Shown here: positions 32,981-47,020 of the stretch, in pieces
Numbering within the stretch: position 1 is the first letter of the stretch
How the letters are laid out: every line of letters starts with the position of its first letter
Source: a virus
Lineage: Duplodnaviria > Caudoviricetes
Virus record (IMG/VR): IMGVR_UViG_3300021426_000004
Coordinates: 84,118-148,117 of that record
DNA length: 64,000 nt
Reading direction: 5' to 3' (one strand)
The notes under the pieces: generated by a model
The model's input: the letters and a program-made list of their open reading frames with translations, nothing else
The model's database searches: none
What the model was told of the DNA's origin: nothing
Position numbers and translations under genes: made by a program

Positions 32981-33637
32981 ATGCCGACTAAAGCTAAAGA
33001 AAATGCAAATCTGATTGATATTGAAGCTAAGATTAAAAGGATGCTTGTTACCATTGAAGGTGAAGGCGATCTGATTCTTAATAAAATGAACGCTCGCAAT
33101 GAACGTGCACTGACTGCAGATGATCGTAAGAGCATTAAAGAAGTACCTAATTTCTGGGAAGATGTTATTACTGCAATTCATTGGCGCGATCCTCTTCCTG
33201 TAAAAGACACATATACGGAATGCAATGAAGAACTTATGCATAGTCTACTCAAAGATAACGCTCCGTCTTTAAGTGCGTTTGCGTTGAAAAGAAGTTTCTG
33301 TGATGCTGTTGTTCGTAATGAAATTGATAACTATAAAACAAAATTCGAAAATGCAATTAATGTTACATCTGAAAATGGAAGAGAACTTATTCCTATTAAG
33401 TTTGCAGGTTGGGAGGCCGAAAAGAGGCTTATGAGTCCTAAGCGTGGTAAGCCGATTAATGTTGTTCTGAATCATTTCCATAACTGGTCTGCAAAATTTA
33501 TGGTAACTTATCTGGATCATGTTTATAGTCGAGATGAGATTCTGAATATTATTAATCTTGCAGGATTCGGCCTTGGAATTGGCAGTGGTCGGACAAGCGG
33601 TTATGGTCGTTATCATATTACAAATGTTGAAGTGTAA
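32981..33637 (+). CDS. Stand-alone Cas7/RAMP-like RNA-binding protein
   Basis: VTIEGEGDLILNK first strand, LSAFALKRSFCDA helix, and C-terminal G-loop GLGIGSGRTSGYGRY typical of RAMP proteins. Confidence 0.8.
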   Translation: MPTKAKENANLIDIEAKIKRMLVTIEGEGDLILNKMNARNERALTADDRKSIKEVPNFWEDVITAIHWRDPLPVKDTYTECNEELMHSLLKDNAPSLSAFALKRSFCDAVVRNEIDNYKTKFENAINVTSENGRELIPIKFAGWEAEKRLMSPKRGKPINVVLNHFHNWSAKFMVTYLDHVYSRDEILNIINLAGFGLGIGSGRTSGYGRYHITNVEV

Positions 33638-36210: not shown

Positions 36211-36819
36211 ATGGTAAAGGTTTATGTGACTACGACTGGTGGACGGAAGAGTGATCTGTTTGACGAAGGCACGACGCTGCGTGAAGTGTTTGATGCATTT
36301 GATATCGACTATTCCGTTGCGACAAACACTATCGACGGTACAAGGATTGATCCTGCCGGGATGGACAAGTCTCTTCGTGACTGGGGAGTGAAGGATGAGT
36401 GCCGTATGTCCTCTATTGTTAAGATCGACAATGCGGCTCATATCGACATTTCCGGTGGTTCTGCTGTCCTGGTATCTGATGTCTCCAGGGAAGATTGGGA
36501 ACGTGTTGAGAAGTATGCGCCTGAAATGCTGAAGATGATTGACGATGAAGGTAACGCAGTCTTCAAGGTAAAGATTGGCTGCGGAGGAGGATCTGTTAAT
36601 AAGTATGGTGTGTGCTTCGGTTCTCATACGAATGAAGGCGGCAAGGCGACCGTTACTGTGATTCTGGATTATGAAGTTGAAGATAAGATTGCCGCTGTGA
36701 AGGATGTTATGGGTTCCGCTCTGCTGGATCTGAACGAGATCGAGAAGGAACTGCCGACTGTGCTGAAGGATATTGCTGACAAAGAAGCGGAGATTAACAA
36801 GCTTATTACGCTGAAGTAA
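36211..36819 (+). CDS. Ubiquitin-like (beta-grasp) domain with C-terminal extension
   Basis: First ~75 aa (VKVYVTT...TTLREVF...DKSLRDWGV...IVKIDNA) resemble Ubl; leads the E2/JAB/E1 operon. Confidence 0.65.
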   Translation: MVKVYVTTTGGRKSDLFDEGTTLREVFDAFDIDYSVATNTIDGTRIDPAGMDKSLRDWGVKDECRMSSIVKIDNAAHIDISGGSAVLVSDVSREDWERVEKYAPEMLKMIDDEGNAVFKVKIGCGGGSVNKYGVCFGSHTNEGGKATVTVILDYEVEDKIAAVKDVMGSALLDLNEIEKELPTVLKDIADKEAEINKLITLK

Positions 36820-36895
36820 TCTCCAAAACTAAAGACAACAAGGGGCTGGAACGATTATGATCCAGCCCCTTTTTTAACTAAGGAGATTAAAAAAT

Positions 36896-38338
36896 ATGTT
36901 TCGTGATTTACTTAATAATCCCATCGATCCCATCCCGATTGATTATATCAATACGCTGAGCAGACCGACAAAAGAAGTTGATATGACGTTAACTCATATC
37001 GGTATTGCCATGCTTCGGCCGAGAATTGAAAATTATACTGGCATCACTGGATGCTATCAAACTCTTTCAGAGGAATCAGCTTGTGTAAACGATTTTCTGA
37101 CTAATCAGTATCCGAAACTCGATAATGCACCAATGCTGTGTTATTATGTTTACAGGAATAAAAATGCTGATGGCGCTTCTGAAAAGCTGCTTAAAGAAAG
37201 TGGTTTTGAACTTAAGGAAAACATTTCCACGCTTATGGCTACAAAAGGAAATGTGAAATGTATTGCTGCGTATCATCCTGTAAAGAACTGCGCCGCCTTA
37301 TTTGTGAATTCTAACGATATTCGTTTCTATCATATGTTAATCTCGTTTGTTTCTCTGCTTTGGCCTAGCCTGTTCAAAGATAAACCTTTAACAGAACAGG
37401 ATTATAACATTGTCAAGGCTCTTGGGAAAACCGACAAGAACACTTTTATCCAGCAAATTCAGACAAGCATCGCACCTTACATTGTTGAATTCAGGAAGAT
37501 GATGCTTGCTACACTGCTTAAGAATATTCATCAGACTAAAATCGAAAGCGCAAAGCATGATGTAGCAGGACAGCGTCAGTATGTTGAAAAGGTAGCAAAC
37601 GATTATGATGAAGCTATGAAACGGCTGAAAACCCTCATTGTAACTTATGAAGGACTGAAAGCAACTGAATCTTTCGATGAGGTTGAGGAAGATTTGATTG
37701 AATATCTCTCTACCAAGAAAGAGCTGCATAATCTTAGTGTTGTAGGTCAGGAGATTACTTTCAGCGTTGCAACATTACTGAATAATTACAATGCAGATGC
37801 GTGGAGGATATTCTCTGAACGTGGTTCTATTTATGACGGAGAATATGGTCCGGAAGCGAATCCTTCAAACATTCAGCTTCTTGATGTATTCAAAGATAAA
37901 ACGAATCGCAAGATCTTCCTTGATAATGTGTTCTCTGAATCGCCTGACTTTGCGATTAAGATCGCTGGTAATTACAGGCTTGATCTTTATGGATGCAATG
38001 TAAGGAGCGAAAGAGGATATAATTATATTGCCGCAGATCCTGTTTATACTTCATATATTCCTAATCCGCATCTTAAGATTTTCTCGTGTCTTGGCGGTTA
38101 TGAAACAAGGATTAATCGTGCGCTTCGTGATCGTAATTATGTTGCGGCTGTTGAACTTTGCTGTACCTCTGCAGGTTCTGTAGATCTTGATGAAACTGCA
38201 CAGACATTTCGTCCGTTCCTTGGATGGATTCTGACAAGCCGTGAAAAGATTATGCACAGGCGGGATGGTGTAGATATGACACCAGAAGAAGCGCTGATTT
38301 GGCTGATTGATAAGGAGAAGAAGAATGAAACCAATTAA
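36896..38338 (+). CDS. Coiled-coil protein with putative E2-like C-terminal domain
   Basis: PNPHLKIFSCLGGY resembles the bacterial E2 PH...CLG signature; lies between Ubl and JAB. Confidence 0.55.
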   Translation: MFRDLLNNPIDPIPIDYINTLSRPTKEVDMTLTHIGIAMLRPRIENYTGITGCYQTLSEESACVNDFLTNQYPKLDNAPMLCYYVYRNKNADGASEKLLKESGFELKENISTLMATKGNVKCIAAYHPVKNCAALFVNSNDIRFYHMLISFVSLLWPSLFKDKPLTEQDYNIVKALGKTDKNTFIQQIQTSIAPYIVEFRKMMLATLLKNIHQTKIESAKHDVAGQRQYVEKVANDYDEAMKRLKTLIVTYEGLKATESFDEVEEDLIEYLSTKKELHNLSVVGQEITFSVATLLNNYNADAWRIFSERGSIYDGEYGPEANPSNIQLLDVFKDKTNRKIFLDNVFSESPDFAIKIAGNYRLDLYGCNVRSERGYNYIAADPVYTSYIPNPHLKIFSCLGGYETRINRALRDRNYVAAVELCCTSAGSVDLDETAQTFRPFLGWILTSREKIMHRRDGVDMTPEEALIWLIDKEKKNETN

Positions 38339-39104
38339 AATTACAGAAGAACTGGAAGAAAAGATTCTTTCAGACTTTATTCAGAAATTTCAGAAAGAAT
38401 GGACTCAGTTTAAAGAGAATATGAACGAGACAAAGTTCAACTTCTCTGTTCAGATGTCACAGAAAGCGAAAGAGAAGATTACTGTTCGTTATTCTCAATC
38501 TGCATATCTTAAAATGCAGGCACTTGTAGAGAATTTCGACACAGAAGTCGGCTGGTATGGATTTGTTAAACGTTTGGATGAAAACACATATTATGTTTAT
38601 GATGTAAAAGTCTGTAAGCAATATGTTACAAGCGGAAAGGTTGATACAGAAGATGAAGATACGCTGAAGTTCTTTGATTCTTTGACGGATGAAGAAATTG
38701 AGGATATGCATTTTCAGGCGCATTCTCATGTAAATATGTCTACAATGCCGTCCGGAACCGATCTTCAGAATCAGTCCGATGTTGTCAGAAATATGGGCAA
38801 CAAAGGATTCTATTTGTTCCAGATCTGGAATAAGCGAGGAGATATAAACAGTTTCCTGTATAACCTTGATGAAAACCTTTTCTATGATAGGAATGATATT
38901 GTTACTGAAATTGAAGGACTTGATGAGTTTATCCTATCTGTAGATGATCTGGTTATAGAACAAAAGACATATCCGTATCAATATTCTCCTTATCCTGTTC
39001 CCGTAAATCAAAAAGAGAAGACAACTAAAAAAAACGAAGAAAAAAGTCCGTATCTAAATGATTATTGGGATGGATGCAATTATAACGAAAGGTGGGATTG
39101 GTAA
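38325..39104 (+). CDS. JAB/JAMM metallopeptidase
   Basis: EVGW...HSHVNMSTMPSGTD matches the JAMM E-x-HSH-x7-S-x2-D motif. Confidence 0.88.
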   Translation: MKPIKITEELEEKILSDFIQKFQKEWTQFKENMNETKFNFSVQMSQKAKEKITVRYSQSAYLKMQALVENFDTEVGWYGFVKRLDENTYYVYDVKVCKQYVTSGKVDTEDEDTLKFFDSLTDEEIEDMHFQAHSHVNMSTMPSGTDLQNQSDVVRNMGNKGFYLFQIWNKRGDINSFLYNLDENLFYDRNDIVTEIEGLDEFILSVDDLVIEQKTYPYQYSPYPVPVNQKEKTTKKNEEKSPYLNDYWDGCNYNERWDW

Positions 39105-39776
39105 TTGAATCTTACAAAAAGTGCAGAGTTTTTCAATCCTGAAAGCGTTAAAGAAACAATTAACTTGATTGGATGTGGTTCTGTTGGATCTGCCGTTGCT
39201 GAGCTTCTTGCAAGGTTCGGACTGACTCGTGTCAATCTTTATGATTTTGACACGGTAGAAGAGCACAATCTTTCCAATCAGATGTTCACAACGAAGAATC
39301 TTTATAAACCTAAGCTCGAAGGTGTTTATGACAGATGGACTGAAATCAACCCTGAAGCAGCTAAGAACATCAAGCTATTTGGGGATGGCTGGGACGGCCA
39401 GAAACTTTCTGGATATGTATTCCTTTGCGTAGATAATATCGAATTACGCAAACGAATCGTTGAAGAAAATAAGTATAACATCAACATAAAGGCTATGTTT
39501 GATTTTAGGACGGCTCTTGTTTCAGCGCAGCATTATGCGGCAGACTGGAGCAAGGACGAAGACATTGCTGCATTTCTTGATACGATGGACTTTACCCACG
39601 CTGAAGCAGAAAAGAATGTTCCAGTAAGTGCTTGTAAGGTATCTTTGTGCGTAATGCCAACCGTATGGAGTGTGGCAATGGCCGGAGTTGTGAACTTCGT
39701 TAATTTCGTAAAAGAAGGAAAACTGGAAAAGGCAATGATTCTTAAGCCTTTTGATTTCGAAACTTTAATTCTGTGA
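39105..39776 (+). CDS. ThiF/E1-like adenylating enzyme
   Basis: IGCGSVGS, DFDTVEEHNLSNQ, CVDN...R and a candidate catalytic Cys in VSAC. Confidence 0.92.
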   Translation: MNLTKSAEFFNPESVKETINLIGCGSVGSAVAELLARFGLTRVNLYDFDTVEEHNLSNQMFTTKNLYKPKLEGVYDRWTEINPEAAKNIKLFGDGWDGQKLSGYVFLCVDNIELRKRIVEENKYNINIKAMFDFRTALVSAQHYAADWSKDEDIAAFLDTMDFTHAEAEKNVPVSACKVSLCVMPTVWSVAMAGVVNFVNFVKEGKLEKAMILKPFDFETLIL

Positions 39777-40038
39777 TTCATAAAGACCAAAAATGTTCAA
39801 TCATTAGCAGTTTATGTTATAAGCTGAATCATTTTGCTCGGAGAAGAAGAAGAAGAGCCAGACCGACGCCTCCGCCGGTCTGGCTCTTGGGAAATTCAGG
39901 AAATAACAGTCAGAAAGATGAAGATCAATAAATAGAAACGGGTAAGACGACTGGAAATGGCCAAATAGCAGGGAAATTCACTTAAACATGCTGCAAGATC
40001 CGGACTATTTCCAGGTAAGACTGTAGAGAGTTTATGAA
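39777..40038 (+). ncRNA. Candidate retron-like ncRNA upstream of the RT
   Basis: Terminal IR TTCATAAA(G)/TTTATGAA; 13-bp hairpin 39853-39888; nested ACAGTC/GACTGT and CTGGAAAT/ATTTCCAG stems. Confidence 0.5.
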
Positions 40039-40057
40039 GCAACAGAAAGGATAACAA

Positions 40058-41206
40058 ATGATTTATATTACTTCACATCAGCATAGAAAACCAAGAACAA
40101 TAACATGGGAAGATGTCATTGCTGATAAAATTGTTTTTAATGACATGGCTAATGATGTTTCAAACTACACAGGCACAATAACAAGAAAACTCTCGGAAAT
40201 TGATTCAGCAATGTTAAAAAAGATTAACATAGACGGAATGATCCAATGGCTGGAATCGTATAATAATGAAAATGAGGAATTATTCAAAGCAAGAAGACAA
40301 GATCTTTACTCTTCATTTATGATCCCAAAAGCAACTGGAGGGTTTAGACGCATTGATAATCCTTGCGACAAACTACAAAACGCTTTAAGGAAATTAAGTA
40401 CATTTCTGACAGAAGACTGTGGACTTTTGTATCATACTGCAGCATTTGCGTATGTTAAAGGAAGAAGTATTGTAGATTGCTTGAGAAAACATCAGAGAAA
40501 TAACTCGAACTGGTTTCTTAAAACGGATTTCAGCGGCTTCTTTCCGAATACTACTTTGGAATTTACTATGAAAATGCTGAAAATGATATTTCCTTTATCT
40601 GAAATATGTAAAAGGAATGACGGTTATAAAGCGTTAAGAAAGGCTATAAGCTTAGGATTCCTGAACGGTGGATTACCCCAAGGAACGGTATTGTCGCCTA
40701 CACTTACAAACATAATTTGTATTCCTATTGATTATCGTCTGTTTAATAGATTTTCTGATATGAAAATTGTGTACACAAGATATGCAGATGATATGCATAT
40801 TTCAGCAGAAAGCAAATTTCCAAAAGAGAAAGCAATTCAAATAATCAATGAAACGCTTGAAAAGTTTGGAGCTCCTTGGGAGCTGAAACCTGAAAAGACG
40901 CATTATGGTAACAGAAAGGGTAAGAACTGGTGCCTTGGATTACTGATCAATGCACAAAATAATATCAGCGTAGGAGATAAGAAGAAGAAATATTTCCAGG
41001 CAGCGCTTAATTCGTTTATTCTGGATACCAAGAATAATAAGCTGTGGAACATGGAAGATGTTGTACATCTGAATGGTTTGCTGTCTTATTACAAGATGGT
41101 TGAAAAAGAATACTTTATGAAGACTATTGAAAAATATAACAAAAAGTATTCAGTTGATGTACACGAAATGTTTAAAAGTTATATGAACGGTAGTTTAGCA
41201 GCATAA
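40058..41206 (+). CDS. Retron-like reverse transcriptase
   Basis: IPKATGGFRRID, AFAYVKGRS, KTDFSGFF, LPQGTVLSP, YTRYADD, and WCLGL in place of VTGL; no maturase or endonuclease domain. Confidence 0.9.
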   Translation: MIYITSHQHRKPRTITWEDVIADKIVFNDMANDVSNYTGTITRKLSEIDSAMLKKINIDGMIQWLESYNNENEELFKARRQDLYSSFMIPKATGGFRRIDNPCDKLQNALRKLSTFLTEDCGLLYHTAAFAYVKGRSIVDCLRKHQRNNSNWFLKTDFSGFFPNTTLEFTMKMLKMIFPLSEICKRNDGYKALRKAISLGFLNGGLPQGTVLSPTLTNIICIPIDYRLFNRFSDMKIVYTRYADDMHISAESKFPKEKAIQIINETLEKFGAPWELKPEKTHYGNRKGKNWCLGLLINAQNNISVGDKKKKYFQAALNSFILDTKNNKLWNMEDVVHLNGLLSYYKMVEKEYFMKTIEKYNKKYSVDVHEMFKSYMNGSLAA

Positions 41207-41371
41207 CAAGAAAAGTCTGAAAAGACTCACGAGATGTTATCGAGTGAAACAAGAAGATCCTTTTATAATATAATTTATTATAAGAATTCCTGAAGGCGGC
41301 CACAAGTGGCAGCCTTCAGGAATCATTATAATAAATAATATTAAACTAATACTTCGTATTTAGTTGTTATG
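41202..41371 (+). ncRNA. Candidate retron msr/msd RNA downstream of the RT
   Basis: IR CATAACAA(G)/TTGTTATG, small stem-loops, then a 38-bp hairpin 41266-41303/41306-41343 with 4 mismatches. Confidence 0.6.
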
Positions 41372-41393: not shown

Positions 41394-41435
41394 GGTACCG
41401 AACTATGGAGACATTCGAAAATTGACGTAAAGGAG
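41394..41435 (+). promoter_or_regulatory. 42-nt phage promoter-like motif
   Basis: GGTACCGAACTATGGAGACATTCGAAAATTGACGTAAAGGAG. Confidence 0.7.
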
Positions 41436-41817
41436 AGAGTGTTGTTAGAAAGGTAGGAATCGCTCTCCTGTAGCACTCTTTCCTTTATAAAAACATACGT
41501 TCCGATGTTAAAAACCTTTGTAGGAACGTTTCTTTGTAATGCGTGGCTTTGCGCTTACAAGGAAAGGCCGTATTAATATATTGCGAGACAATATGATACG
41601 GTCGGGAGCTGCTCGCAATAAGCTTAATGAAGACTCTGCCTGTCTTCGGCTCCCATTTTAATTTAATAAAAAGAGTAGATTCCCAACACACATAAAAAAT
41701 CGCTTTTTTAGTGGTTTCAGGATCATCTTATATAGCGACATCTCTCTTGCATCCAGAGCTAACAATGTAAGTTCTCATGTTGCTATTTAGGCTGATTAAT
41801 TTCAGCCTATTTTTTTA

Positions 41818-41881
41818 TGCGCAGTCGTCCAACGGAAGGACAACGTACAAGTAAATCCAAGTTCGATTCTTGGCTGTGTAA
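41818..41881 (+). ncRNA. tRNA-like RNA lacking an anticodon arm
   Basis: Acceptor TGCGCAG/CTGTGTA, D-arm GTCC-AACGGAA-GGAC, T-arm CCAAG-TTCGATT-CTTGG, only 15 nt between D and T arms. Confidence 0.6.
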
Positions 41882-46762: not shown

Positions 46763-47020
46763 TAATCGCTAAGACAAGCTGCAAAGGCTCAGTCTATGTT
46801 ATAGGTTGATTCACATTGGGAAAGAATTGCCGATCTTACCCAGCTGCTGGCTCGCCAACGAGCCCGCAGCTGGGACAATCGGCTTGTTTACAGCTCGCCA
46901 TCAAGGTGCGAGCTGTAAACAGACGAATACTCACGTATTTAGTTAGCGAATACCGAACGGATGTTTACTACAGACAAAACATTACTAAAGAAATTATAAA
47001 ACATCAGGAGGAAGTTAATC

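What the first reader, a model, noticed from the sequence alone, without database searches (positions are those of the whole stretch)
36211..41371. Phage-encoded ubiquitin-like conjugation operon followed by a retron-like RT
Seen, co-oriented: a Ubl domain ending KIDNA with a C-terminal extension, an E2-like coiled-coil protein (NPH...CLG), a JAMM peptidase, a ThiF/E1 enzyme, structured RNA, then an RT. Known: bacterial Ubl-E1-E2-JAB systems conjugate proteins in phage-host conflict, and retrons use RT-msDNA to control effectors. Inference: JAB trims the Ubl after DNA75, exposing a non-GG terminus for conjugation, possibly under RT/msDNA control. This could serve counter-defence or superinfection exclusion.
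Basis: partly seen in the sequence, partly recalled or inferred. Interest (0 to 1): 0.8.

Follow-up and report, generated by a model that had tools for sequence, protein, structure and literature searches.

The report
Phage retron joined to ubiquitin-like kit
A complete 148-kb uncultured gut/rumen phage carries a retron-type reverse transcriptase with at least three template RNAs, and in every adequately sampled relative this sits next to a four-enzyme ubiquitin-like protein-tagging kit whose tag ends in Asp-Asn-Ala instead of Gly-Gly; no paper I could search describes the pairing.

Summary
Window 36211-41371 encodes, co-oriented:
- a protein with a ubiquitin-fold domain (residues 1-75) fused to a 127-residue domain of unknown fold
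- a 480-aa protein with a long helix and a C-terminal RWD/UBC-like domain carrying an invariant NPH-x5-C
- an intact JAMM peptidase
- a small ThiF/E1
- a retron-like ncRNA, a retron-clade RT, and a second ncRNA

In about 29 distinct relatives the tag is a stand-alone ~75-aa gene. In 24 of them it stops exactly at ...DNA, the residue aligned to A75.

The ncRNAs show a covarying a1/a2 closing stem followed by an invariant G. A third unit lies 5.5 kb downstream.

Searches seeded from the E2-like protein and, separately, from the RT gave about 100 phage loci. Every locus with enough flank keeps cassette and RT together, down to 40% RT and ~20% E2-like identity, with variable flanks.

My best reading is a new retron type whose effector slot is a Bil-like conjugation cascade. 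The direction of control and the target are unknown.

This scan has noted the same pairing on other phage genomes. I found no paper describing it.

The parts
36211..36435 (+). Ubiquitin-like (beta-grasp) domain, residues 1-75 of the 202-aa protein, ending K71-I-D-N-A75. This is the proposed mature tag.
   Evidence: AF2 pLDDT 85. Foldseek matches SUMO/Ub at TM ~0.7. VIA Z 8-9.4, with all 50 rows Ub-like. Stand-alone homologues stop at ...DNA.
36436..36819 (+). C-terminal domain (residues 76-202): a beta-sheet followed by a helical hairpin, fold not identified. It is a separate gene upstream of the tag gene in about half of related loci.
   Evidence: Secondary structure. Fifty ORFs matching only the C-terminal-domain profile against 44 fused ORFs in related loci. 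Example: L020 5312-5698.
36896..38338 (+). E2-like protein. N-terminal domain of unknown fold (residues 1-190, H146 near-invariant), a 65-residue helix (193-257), and a C-terminal RWD/UBC-like domain (258-480). N390-P-H392 lies at 38063-38071 and the candidate catalytic C398 at 38087-38089.
   Evidence: AF2 pLDDT 91.5. VIA matches RWD domains at Z 7.0/6.6/6.4. H392 and C398 are invariant in 75 homologues. The family holds 1633 clusters at 50% identity. Complex with the tag: weak support, 0.46 against a best control of 0.00.
38307..39104 (+). JAMM/JAB metallopeptidase, overlapping the end of the E2-like gene by 32 nt. The motif H139-x-H141-x7-S149-x2-D152 lies at 38721-38762, with E80 upstream.
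   Evidence: Motif read from the sequence and invariant in 74 homologues. PADLOC JAB 4.5e-4. Pfam Prok-JAB 0.016, below cut-off.
39105..39776 (+). Small E1/ThiF-type adenylating enzyme (223 aa), directly abutting the JAB gene. The invariant C177 lies at 39633-39635.
   Evidence: Pfam ThiF 6e-18, above cut-off. MoeB 1.4e-8 among solved structures. G23/25/28, D47, D49, K70, D110, R135 and C177 are invariant in 66 homologues.
39777..40038 (+). Retron-like ncRNA unit 1. It starts at the base after the E1 stop codon: a1 39777-39784, candidate branching G 39785, conserved hairpin 39808-39826, GC-rich hairpin 39855-39886, a2 40031-40038 (19 nt before the RT start codon).
   Evidence: a1/a2 pairs in 98.5% of cells, with all 8 pairs showing double changes. 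Covariation score for both helices together is 0.778, against 0.253 in shuffles and 0.10-0.16 when slid. G follows a1 in 17 of 17 loci. Fold z-score -3.2.
40058..41206 (+). Retron-clade reverse transcriptase (382 aa). YADD lies at 40781-40792.
   Evidence: NCBIfam retron St85 family 5e-53, 180 bits, below the 235-bit cut-off. PADLOC RT_II-A 3.5e-48. Retron Ec83 RT 3e-23. D244 and D245 invariant, Y242 in 73 and A243 in 72 of 74 homologues.
41202..41371 (+). Retron-like ncRNA unit 2, overlapping the RT stop codon. a1 41202-41209 (CATAACAA), G 41210, two small hairpins, a long perfect hairpin 41266-41343, TTTAG, then a2 41364-41371 (TTGTTATG).
   Evidence: (z-score -7.9). Covariance-model hit at 41203-41270. 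Equivalent units follow the RT in most related loci.
46766..46949 (+). Retron-like ncRNA unit 3, outside the finding and 5.5 kb downstream of the RT. a1 TCGCTAA, then G, a hairpin with an ATGTTAT loop, two GC-rich hairpins, TTTAG, then a2 TTAGCGA.
   Evidence: Covariance-model hit and sequence. Units at the equivalent position in L005, L006, L007, L012 and L108.

Best explanation
This is one phage-borne module that joins a multi-template retron to a Bil-like ubiquitin-like conjugation cascade. I read it as a new retron type in which the conjugation cascade sits where other retrons carry their effector.

Proposed steps, each marked shown or inferred:
1. The tag is made as a precursor fused to a second domain. 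This is shown.
2. The JAMM peptidase cuts between A75 and A76, releasing a tag that ends ...Asp-Asn-Ala. The cut site is supported by natural split genes. The enzyme is inferred.
3. The small E1 adenylates Ala75 and takes the tag on C177. Inferred from invariant residues.
4. The tag passes to C398 of the E2-like protein and then to an unknown target. Inferred.
5. The RT copies at least three ncRNAs, primed from the G after a1, into msDNA-like products. Inferred from the retron architecture.
6. As in known tripartite retrons, the RT-msDNA complex acts as the sensing or regulating arm for the conjugation arm. Inferred from strict linkage only; the direction of control is open.

The likeliest biological setting is conflict between this probably temperate phage (it encodes an integrase), rival phages and host defences.
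For: Parts: see the observation check.

Cut site:
- K-x-D-N-[AG]-[AT] is conserved in all fused forms, and L017 and L019 read DNG|A.
- 24 of 29 distinct stand-alone tags end ...NA-stop.
- The L020 gene pair splits exactly at A75|A76.

Retron features:
- The a1/a2 stem covaries and a G follows a1 in 17 of 17 loci.
- The same design holds in distant loci.
- Model R1 hits: 52 of 52 lie on the module strand, with 2-4 units per locus.
- Only 4 hits at E<=1 occur in the whole 148-kb genome. Two abut the RT, one is unit 3, and one weak hit lies inside the YonO gene.

Linkage:
- All E2-like-seeded loci with enough flank have the RT after the E1.
- Of 80 RT-seeded loci, every one with at least ~5 kb upstream has the cassette in the same order. 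Only loci cut at a contig edge lack it.
- Genes upstream are not conserved, and YonO is absent within 6-8 kb in most distant loci.
- a1 starts at the base after the E1 stop, and no + strand terminator-like site with a strong stem lies inside the block.
- No other effector candidate adjoins the RT.
- The nearest RTs outside this clade, at most 29% identical, sit in unrelated phages.

Complex of the tag with the E2-like C-domain: weak support. Score 0.46 against a best control of 0.00. That mark was reached by 58 of 80 solved complexes and 2 of 110 mismatches, but passes at 0.60 or under are more often wrong than right.

RNA-library contigs from two studies cover parts of every gene.
Against: - No biochemical step is shown.
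- All loci come from one broad phage lineage, so conserved order is partly inheritance.
- In one subclade a DUF6273-like gene sits between the E1 and ncRNA 1, so strict adjacency is not required.
- Stand-alone ncRNA-RT cassettes without an effector exist (Mestre et al. 2020, PMC7736814).
- The cascade has no obvious toxic domain, unlike known retron effectors.
- The E2 fold match is moderate (Z about 7) and no E2 profile matches.
- The RT scores below NCBIfam's retron cut-off.
Cassettes without an RT may exist.
Confidence: 0.55

Rival explanations
1. Two independent systems that are neighbours by descent: a phage Bil-like tagging cassette and an effector-less retron, or an RT with another job. 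They share a transcript but not a function.
For: All loci belong to one broad phage lineage. Stand-alone ncRNA-RT cassettes are known (PMC7736814). An unrelated gene can sit between the E1 and ncRNA 1. A third ncRNA lies 5.5 kb away from the cassette.
Against: Co-occurrence held in every locus with enough flank, from two independent seeds, down to 40% RT and ~20% E2-like identity, while both flanks vary. ncRNA 1 begins at the E1 stop codon. Neither half was found without the other in the collections searched.
Confidence: 0.2
2. Control runs the other way. As Cap2/Cap3 do for the CBASS cyclase, the E1/E2-like/JAB enzymes tag and untag the RT, or a partner of it, to switch cDNA synthesis on or off. 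The cDNAs would then be the working output, for example decoys, primers or guides.
For: The linkage evidence is the same. Multiple template RNAs per genome suggest the cDNAs themselves matter. The cassette has no toxin-like domain. E1 profile hits include Cap2-type E1-E2 proteins.
Against: A dedicated tag protein exists, unlike in CBASS. Nothing points to the RT as the target. Known retrons use msDNA as the regulator, not the product.
Confidence: 0.15
3. A counter-defence kit. The JAB strips host Bil-type tags from phage proteins, the tag and E1/E2-like enzymes disable host proteins, and the msDNAs act as nucleic-acid decoys against host nucleases or retrons.
For: The module is phage-encoded and widespread in gut and rumen phage contigs. 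Host Bil systems are reported to act in antiphage immunity (Corbett-lab papers).
Against: A full E1-E2-tag set is not needed for deconjugation. No host target is known. This does not explain the strict RT linkage better than the main reading.
Confidence: 0.07
4. A sulfur-carrier or biosynthetic ThiS/MoaD-ThiF-type pathway with a JAMM trimming enzyme, like QbsCDE or CysO-Mec (from general knowledge). It would make a modified cofactor or nucleoside and would not conjugate proteins.
For: The E1 is closest by sequence to MoeB/ThiF. JAMM trimming of carrier C-termini is known in such pathways (general knowledge).
Against: The carrier ends in Ala, not Gly-Gly. No rhodanese, cysteine desulfurase or synthase partner is present. 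An invariant-Cys RWD/UBC-like protein is present.
Confidence: 0.03

Closest known systems
Retrons (RT + msr-msd ncRNA + effector; types of Mestre et al. 2020, PMC7736814). The nearest RT profiles and structures are type II-A (St85/Sen2 family) and type I-A (Ec83, Ec78).
   Same: The RT belongs to the retron clade. The ncRNA lies directly upstream of the RT, closed by a covarying a1/a2 stem with a conserved G right after a1. Protein genes are tightly linked, as in tripartite retrons.
   Different: The linked genes are a ubiquitin-like conjugation cascade, and Mestre et al. mention no ubiquitin, ThiF or JAB. There are at least three ncRNA units per genome, two of them flanking the RT. The module is carried by large uncultured phages. 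The RT scores below the NCBIfam retron cut-off (180 against 235 bits). The motif-7 position reads [ST]-[VI]-G rather than VTG.
Bil (bacterial ISG15-like) operons, especially type II with a single beta-grasp tag: BilA (Ubl), BilB (E2), BilC (JAB), BilD (E1). Sources: PMC11601603, PMC10557695.
   Same: The same four components, listed in the same sequence as the paper lists the Bil parts: tag, E2, JAB, E1. The tag domain superposes on the Ubl chain of a solved bacterial E1-E2-Ubl complex (8tyz_B, Z 8.6).
   Different: No sequence-profile match for the tag or the E2-like protein. The tag ends ...DNA, not Gly, and is fused to, or preceded by a gene for, an extra 127-aa domain. The E2-like protein is 480 aa with an N-terminal domain and a long helix. 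The E1 is minimal at 223 aa. The module is phage-encoded and coupled to an RT.
Type II CBASS Cap2 (E1-E2 fusion) and Cap3 (JAB)
   Same: E1, E2 and JAB chemistry used to regulate a nucleic-acid-type polymerase in phage-host conflict. The E1 gives weak profile hits to Cap2-type proteins.
   Different: CBASS has no separate tag: the cyclase's own C-terminus is conjugated. Its enzymes are fused. It has no RT and no ncRNA.
PRTRC cassette (ParB-related, ThiF-related; NCBIfam TIGR03735-03742) and the Prok-E2_D / alpha-hel2 proteins of Aravind-type bacterial Ub operons
   Same: A small ThiF, a JAB, a beta-grasp protein and a large E2-bearing protein with a helical N-terminal part, all on mobile elements. 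The protein-language-model neighbour list names Prok-E2_D clusters at 0.83, which is a lead only.
   Different: PRTRC_ThiF scores 18.6 bits against a cut-off of 144.75, and no other PRTRC model hit. No member of the E2-like family hits Pfam Prok-E2_D. No ParB was seen among the ORFs of 33-45 kb.

Membership tests
Retron | RT falls in the retron RT clade | tested here: met
   Best profiles are retron St85 family (5e-53) and PADLOC RT_II-A/I-A. The 12 best solved matches are all retron RTs, with Ec83 at 3e-23. The score is below NCBIfam's family cut-off, so this is a divergent branch.
Retron | ncRNA next to the RT, closed by a1/a2 inverted repeats | tested here: met
   98.5% of cells pair and all 8 pairs show changes on both sides. 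Covariation for both helices together is 0.778 against 0.253 in shuffles, and slid controls pair 38-42%. Caveat: sequence ends were chosen by complementarity. The internal hairpin, which was not chosen that way, pairs in 86.6% of cells with 6 pairs showing double changes.
Retron | Conserved branching G at the 3' end of a1, priming a 2'-5' linked msDNA | not testable with these tools
   A G follows a1 in 17 of 17 loci, and it is near-invariant in the 26-row alignment. The branch and the msDNA themselves cannot be seen in sequence.
Retron | VTG signature in RT motif 7 (PMC8632793) | tested here: inconclusive
   The aligned position reads T/S (72/2), V/I (50/23), G (70 of 74). The Ec83 RT aligns LSLG at the same place.
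Retron | Specifically associated effector gene(s) | tested here: met
   The Ubl/E2-like/JAB/E1 cassette accompanies the RT in every locus with enough flank, from two independent seeds. Whether it functions as an effector is untested.
Bil (BilABCD) | Operon with Ubl, E2, JAB and E1 | tested here: met
   All four are recognised by fold or motif.
Bil (BilABCD) | Tag with a C-terminal glycine exposed for conjugation | tested here: not met
   The terminus is ...D-N-A in 24 of 29 distinct stand-alone tags. Only L017 and L019 have DNG at the junction.
Bil (BilABCD) | Sequence relationship of the tag and E2 to Bil families | tested here: inconclusive
   No PADLOC, Pfam, NCBIfam or PDB-sequence hit for either protein. 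I do not know whether these libraries hold Bil models.
E2/UBC superfamily | UBC/RWD alpha-beta fold | tested here: inconclusive
   Three RWD-domain hits at Z 7.0, 6.6 and 6.4 over residues 259-456, among coiled-coil rows. Z below 8 may reflect only a common arrangement. Foldseek with the whole model found nothing, and I could not fold the domain alone.
E2/UBC superfamily | Catalytic Cys a few residues after an H/N-P-N/H flap | tested here: met
   N390-P-H392-x5-C398-x-G400. H392 and C398 occur in 75 of 75 homologues, N390 in 71 and G400 in 74. They remain invariant at 20-34% identity. The order NPH is reversed relative to the canonical HPN.
JAMM/MPN+ peptidase | E...HxH-x7-S-x2-D metal site | tested here: met
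   E80, H139, H141, S149 and D152 are invariant in 74 homologues.
E1/ThiF adenylating enzymes | ThiF Rossmann fold with GxGxxG, the catalytic Asp and a Cys | tested here: met
   Pfam ThiF is above cut-off. G23/25/28, D110, R135 and C177 are invariant.
PRTRC cassette | Matches to the PRTRC protein models | tested here: not met
   PRTRC_ThiF scores 18.6 bits against a 144.75-bit cut-off, and no other PRTRC model hit.

The most novel reading that the evidence does not exclude
A phage-encoded, multi-template retron whose msDNAs gate a ubiquitin-like conjugation cascade with a non-glycine (Asn-Ala) tag. This would be nucleic-acid sensing by reverse-transcribed DNA coupled directly to protein tagging, a signalling logic not described for retrons or for any ubiquitin-like system.
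Probability: 0.35. Interest if true: 0.9.

Novelty: new variant of a known kind. Interest (0 to 1): 0.8.

Why it matters
Retron effectors described so far are toxins such as nucleases, NAD-type enzymes and membrane proteins. Bacterial ubiquitin-like cascades (Bil, Bub, CBASS Cap2/3) have no described nucleic-acid sensor. A module that ties the two together would be a new way for each to work.

The module is on the phage side of the conflict and it is abundant. The E2-like family alone has 1633 clusters at 50% identity.

It also supplies a natural series of fused and pre-cut tags that pins the processing site. It offers a ubiquitin-like tag ending in Ala, and a retron with several template RNAs, which may interest retron-based genome engineering.

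Tried and rejected
Sequence searches that found nothing for the tag protein or the E2-like protein:
- Pfam, NCBIfam, PHROGs and PADLOC, including scans of every alignment member.
- PDB sequence searches, single sequence and profile.

Structure searches:
- Foldseek of the whole E2-like model gave no match at E<=0.001.
- The folds of the tag protein's C-terminal domain and of the E2-like N-terminal domain stay unresolved.
- The protein atlas gave only a sub-0.9 lead to Prok-E2_D and nothing usable for the tag protein.

Context searches:
- The scan of representative bacterial genomes found no relative, so there is no host or prophage assignment.
- Alignment A5 was too divergent to search with. 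The scan with the single distant protein found nothing.
- The search for shorter homologues found only two fragments.
- The YonO-seeded scan returned only 4 loci, so I could not tell whether the module is core or patchy in this phage group.
- GenBank phages gave no DNA match. One uncultured human faecal record carries both the E2-like gene and the RT in the same order, and no cultured phage does.

RNA and transcription:
- Rfam found only tRNAs.
- My first motif pattern had the wrong spacing and was uninformative.
- The sigma-70 and terminator scan was near chance and does not cover phage polymerases.
- Read laying used assembled contigs only, so it gives no transcript ends, strand or levels. 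RNA-library contigs left 39752-39965 almost uncovered and none joins the E1 to ncRNA 1. RNA libraries may also contain DNA.

I rejected a sulfur-carrier reading and a lambda gpI/gpK-type tail-assembly reading, because an E1 plus an invariant-Cys E2-like protein is present and no partner enzymes are.

Full report
**Setting.** The window is bases 84118-148117 of a complete 148,117-bp virus record with direct terminal repeats. The record encodes a tyrosine integrase. Just downstream of the finding lies a 939-aa YonO-type single-subunit RNA polymerase, 32-36% identical to those of SPbeta-group and clostridial phages. Near-identical DNA occurs in animal gut and bovine or sheep gut metagenomes from several studies. 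No DNA match and no cultured relative of the module exist in GenBank phages. One uncultured human faecal record carries both the E2-like gene and the RT, in the same order.

**The conjugation cassette.** Four co-oriented genes are packed tightly. There is a 76-nt gap after the first gene, a 32-nt overlap between the second and third, and direct abutment between the third and fourth.

*Tag protein.* It has no profile hit. Its homologues gave a confident model with pLDDT 85.
- Residues 1-75 are a beta-grasp. Foldseek matched SUMO and ubiquitin at TM about 0.7 and rmsd 2.2-2.8 A.
- In VIA all 50 top rows are ubiquitin-like domains at Z 8.0-9.4, including the Ubl chain of a solved bacterial E1-E2-Ubl complex, 8tyz_B.
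- Residues 76-202 form a sheet plus a helical hairpin. I could not identify this fold.

*E2-like protein.* The model has pLDDT 91.5.
- It shows an N-terminal domain, one 65-residue helix, and a C-terminal alpha/beta domain.
- The only non-coiled-coil matches of that C-terminal domain are RWD domains, the inactive branch of the UBC fold: Z 7.0, 6.6 and 6.4.
- A profile of the domain found 1633 clusters at 50% identity. The 150 listed are nearly all 430-530 aa, with the domain at the C-terminus.
- N-P/T-H-x5-C-x-G stays invariant at 20-34% identity.
- A complex prediction of tag 1-75 with this domain gave weak support. The score was 0.46 against a best control of 0.00. That mark was reached by 58 of 80 solved complexes and 2 of 110 mismatches, but passes at 0.60 or under are more often wrong than right.

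*JAB and E1.* The JAB has a complete JAMM site. The E1 has a complete ThiF site plus an invariant Cys177. All these residues are invariant in 66-74 distinct homologues.

**The processing site.** Comparative data support this well.
- In all fused forms the junction reads K-x-D-N-[AG]-[AT].
- Fifty-one ORFs in related loci match only the tag profile (29 distinct sequences, most about 75 aa), and 50 match only the C-terminal-domain profile.
- Of the 29 distinct stand-alone tags, 24 stop exactly at ...[DSA]-N-A. Four carry one to three extra residues. One ends two residues early.
- In L020 the C-terminal-domain gene begins at the residue aligned to A76.
- The mature tag therefore most likely ends in Asn-Ala. 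Fused forms such as the window's need a cut at A75|A76.
- The JAMM peptidase is the only protease in the block, so it is the obvious candidate. This is inference.

**The retron half.** The RT is retron-clade, with D244 and D245 invariant and Y242 and A243 nearly so.

*Unit 1.* Between the E1 stop and the RT start lies a 262-nt RNA.
- Its first eight bases, starting at the base after the stop codon, pair with eight bases that end 19 nt before the RT start.
- Across 26 loci this stem pairs in 98.5% of cells, with compensatory changes at all eight positions.
- An internal hairpin pairs in 86.6% of cells, with six pairs showing double changes.
- The covariation score is 0.778, against 0.253 in shuffles and 0.10-0.16 when the partner is slid.
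- The sequence ends were chosen by complementarity, which favours the outer stem. The fixed placement, the G after a1 in 17 of 17 loci, the recurrent (T)TAG before a2, and the same design in distant loci do not depend on that choice.

*Unit 2.* A second unit of the same design overlaps the RT stop codon and ends at 41371. It contains a long perfect hairpin.

*Unit 3.* A third unit lies at 46766-46949.

*Covariance model.* A model of the shared 5' part found 52 matches in 23 sources, all on the module's strand, with 2-4 units per locus. A unit recurs at the position equivalent to unit 3 in close relatives. In the whole 148-kb genome only four hits appear. Two abut the RT, one is unit 3, and one weak hit lies inside the YonO gene. 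The units are therefore RT-associated rather than a general intergenic repeat.

**Linkage.**
- Seeding from the E2-like protein gave 13, then 7, then 7 loci. Every locus reaching far enough has the order tag, E2-like, JAB, E1, RT.
- Seeding independently from the RT gave 80 loci with RT identity of 40% or more, out of 160 relatives found. Every locus with at least about 5 kb upstream carries the cassette in that order. The few that lack part or all of it start too close to the RT.
- Genes upstream of the tag are not conserved. YonO follows at 1 to more than 8 kb.
- One subclade has a DUF6273-like gene between the E1 and ncRNA 1.
- The next-nearest RTs, at most 29% identical, sit in unrelated phages.
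- This is strong evidence for a conserved module. All loci belong to one broad lineage, so it is not proof of joint function.

**Expression.** Contigs from three RNA libraries (two studies) cover parts of every gene and the RT-ncRNA 2 junction. They peak at 41421-41763. These are assembled contigs and RNA libraries can contain DNA, so this shows presence only.

**Literature.** No paper in the searchable library holds retron together with ThiF and ubiquitin. Papers that hold both retron and ubiquitin-like are reviews or unrelated work. The retron classification of Mestre et al. mentions no ubiquitin, ThiF or JAB. Bil operons are described as having the same four components. Bub operons use other chemistry.

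**Earlier notes of this scan.** They report the same pairing on other phage genomes, and extra template-RNA copies. I re-tested both points here.

**Verdict.** The cut-site inference is well supported, and the linkage of RT and cassette is very well supported. The mechanism that joins them, and its biological purpose, remain inference.

Noticed in passing
window 41421-41763: This is the most deeply covered stretch in three RNA-library contig sets from two studies (depth 31, 20 and 5.5, against 2-8 elsewhere). It lies in the 1-kb non-coding gap between ncRNA 2 and the YonO gene and is followed by a terminator-like hairpin with a T-run at 41788-41816. It is possibly an abundant phage small RNA.
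   Followed up: partly
window 39890-40008: In a DNA run from a second sample of the same study, a contig otherwise ~98% identical has this 117-nt inner part of ncRNA 1 replaced by a diverged segment of the same length. The variable (msd-like?) core therefore appears to turn over fast between strains.
   Followed up: no
L007 13894-17735; L010 10772-15543; L012 14921-18821; L016, L017: The YonO-type RNA polymerase gene of several relatives is interrupted once or twice by insertions of about 1 kb (intron- or intein-like). The window's copy is uninterrupted.
   Followed up: no
L067 6816-7622: One subclade carries a 268-aa DUF6273-like gene (E 0.002, below cut-off) between the E1 and ncRNA 1.
   Followed up: partly
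L004 13038-13325; L005 12902-13166 (also L108 7142 and 7428): Some relatives carry an extra copy of the ncRNA 5' module directly after the E1, ahead of the complete unit 1. L098 likewise has a unit right after the E1, about 1.2 kb ahead of unit 1.
   Followed up: partly
window 41810-41880: A tRNA-like fragment with a GTTCGATTC T-arm-like motif lies after the terminator-like site. Neither ARAGORN nor Rfam called it.
   Followed up: no
G000:C1:3664-4167 (outside the window): A tyrosine integrase/recombinase (387-aa frame, 80.7 bits) is present, so the phage may be temperate. No serine recombinase was found.
   Followed up: partly
window 32981-33637: A 218-aa protein gives a weak RAMP-superfamily hit (E 0.019). 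It is conserved upstream in a few relatives only (L001, L003, L007).
   Followed up: no
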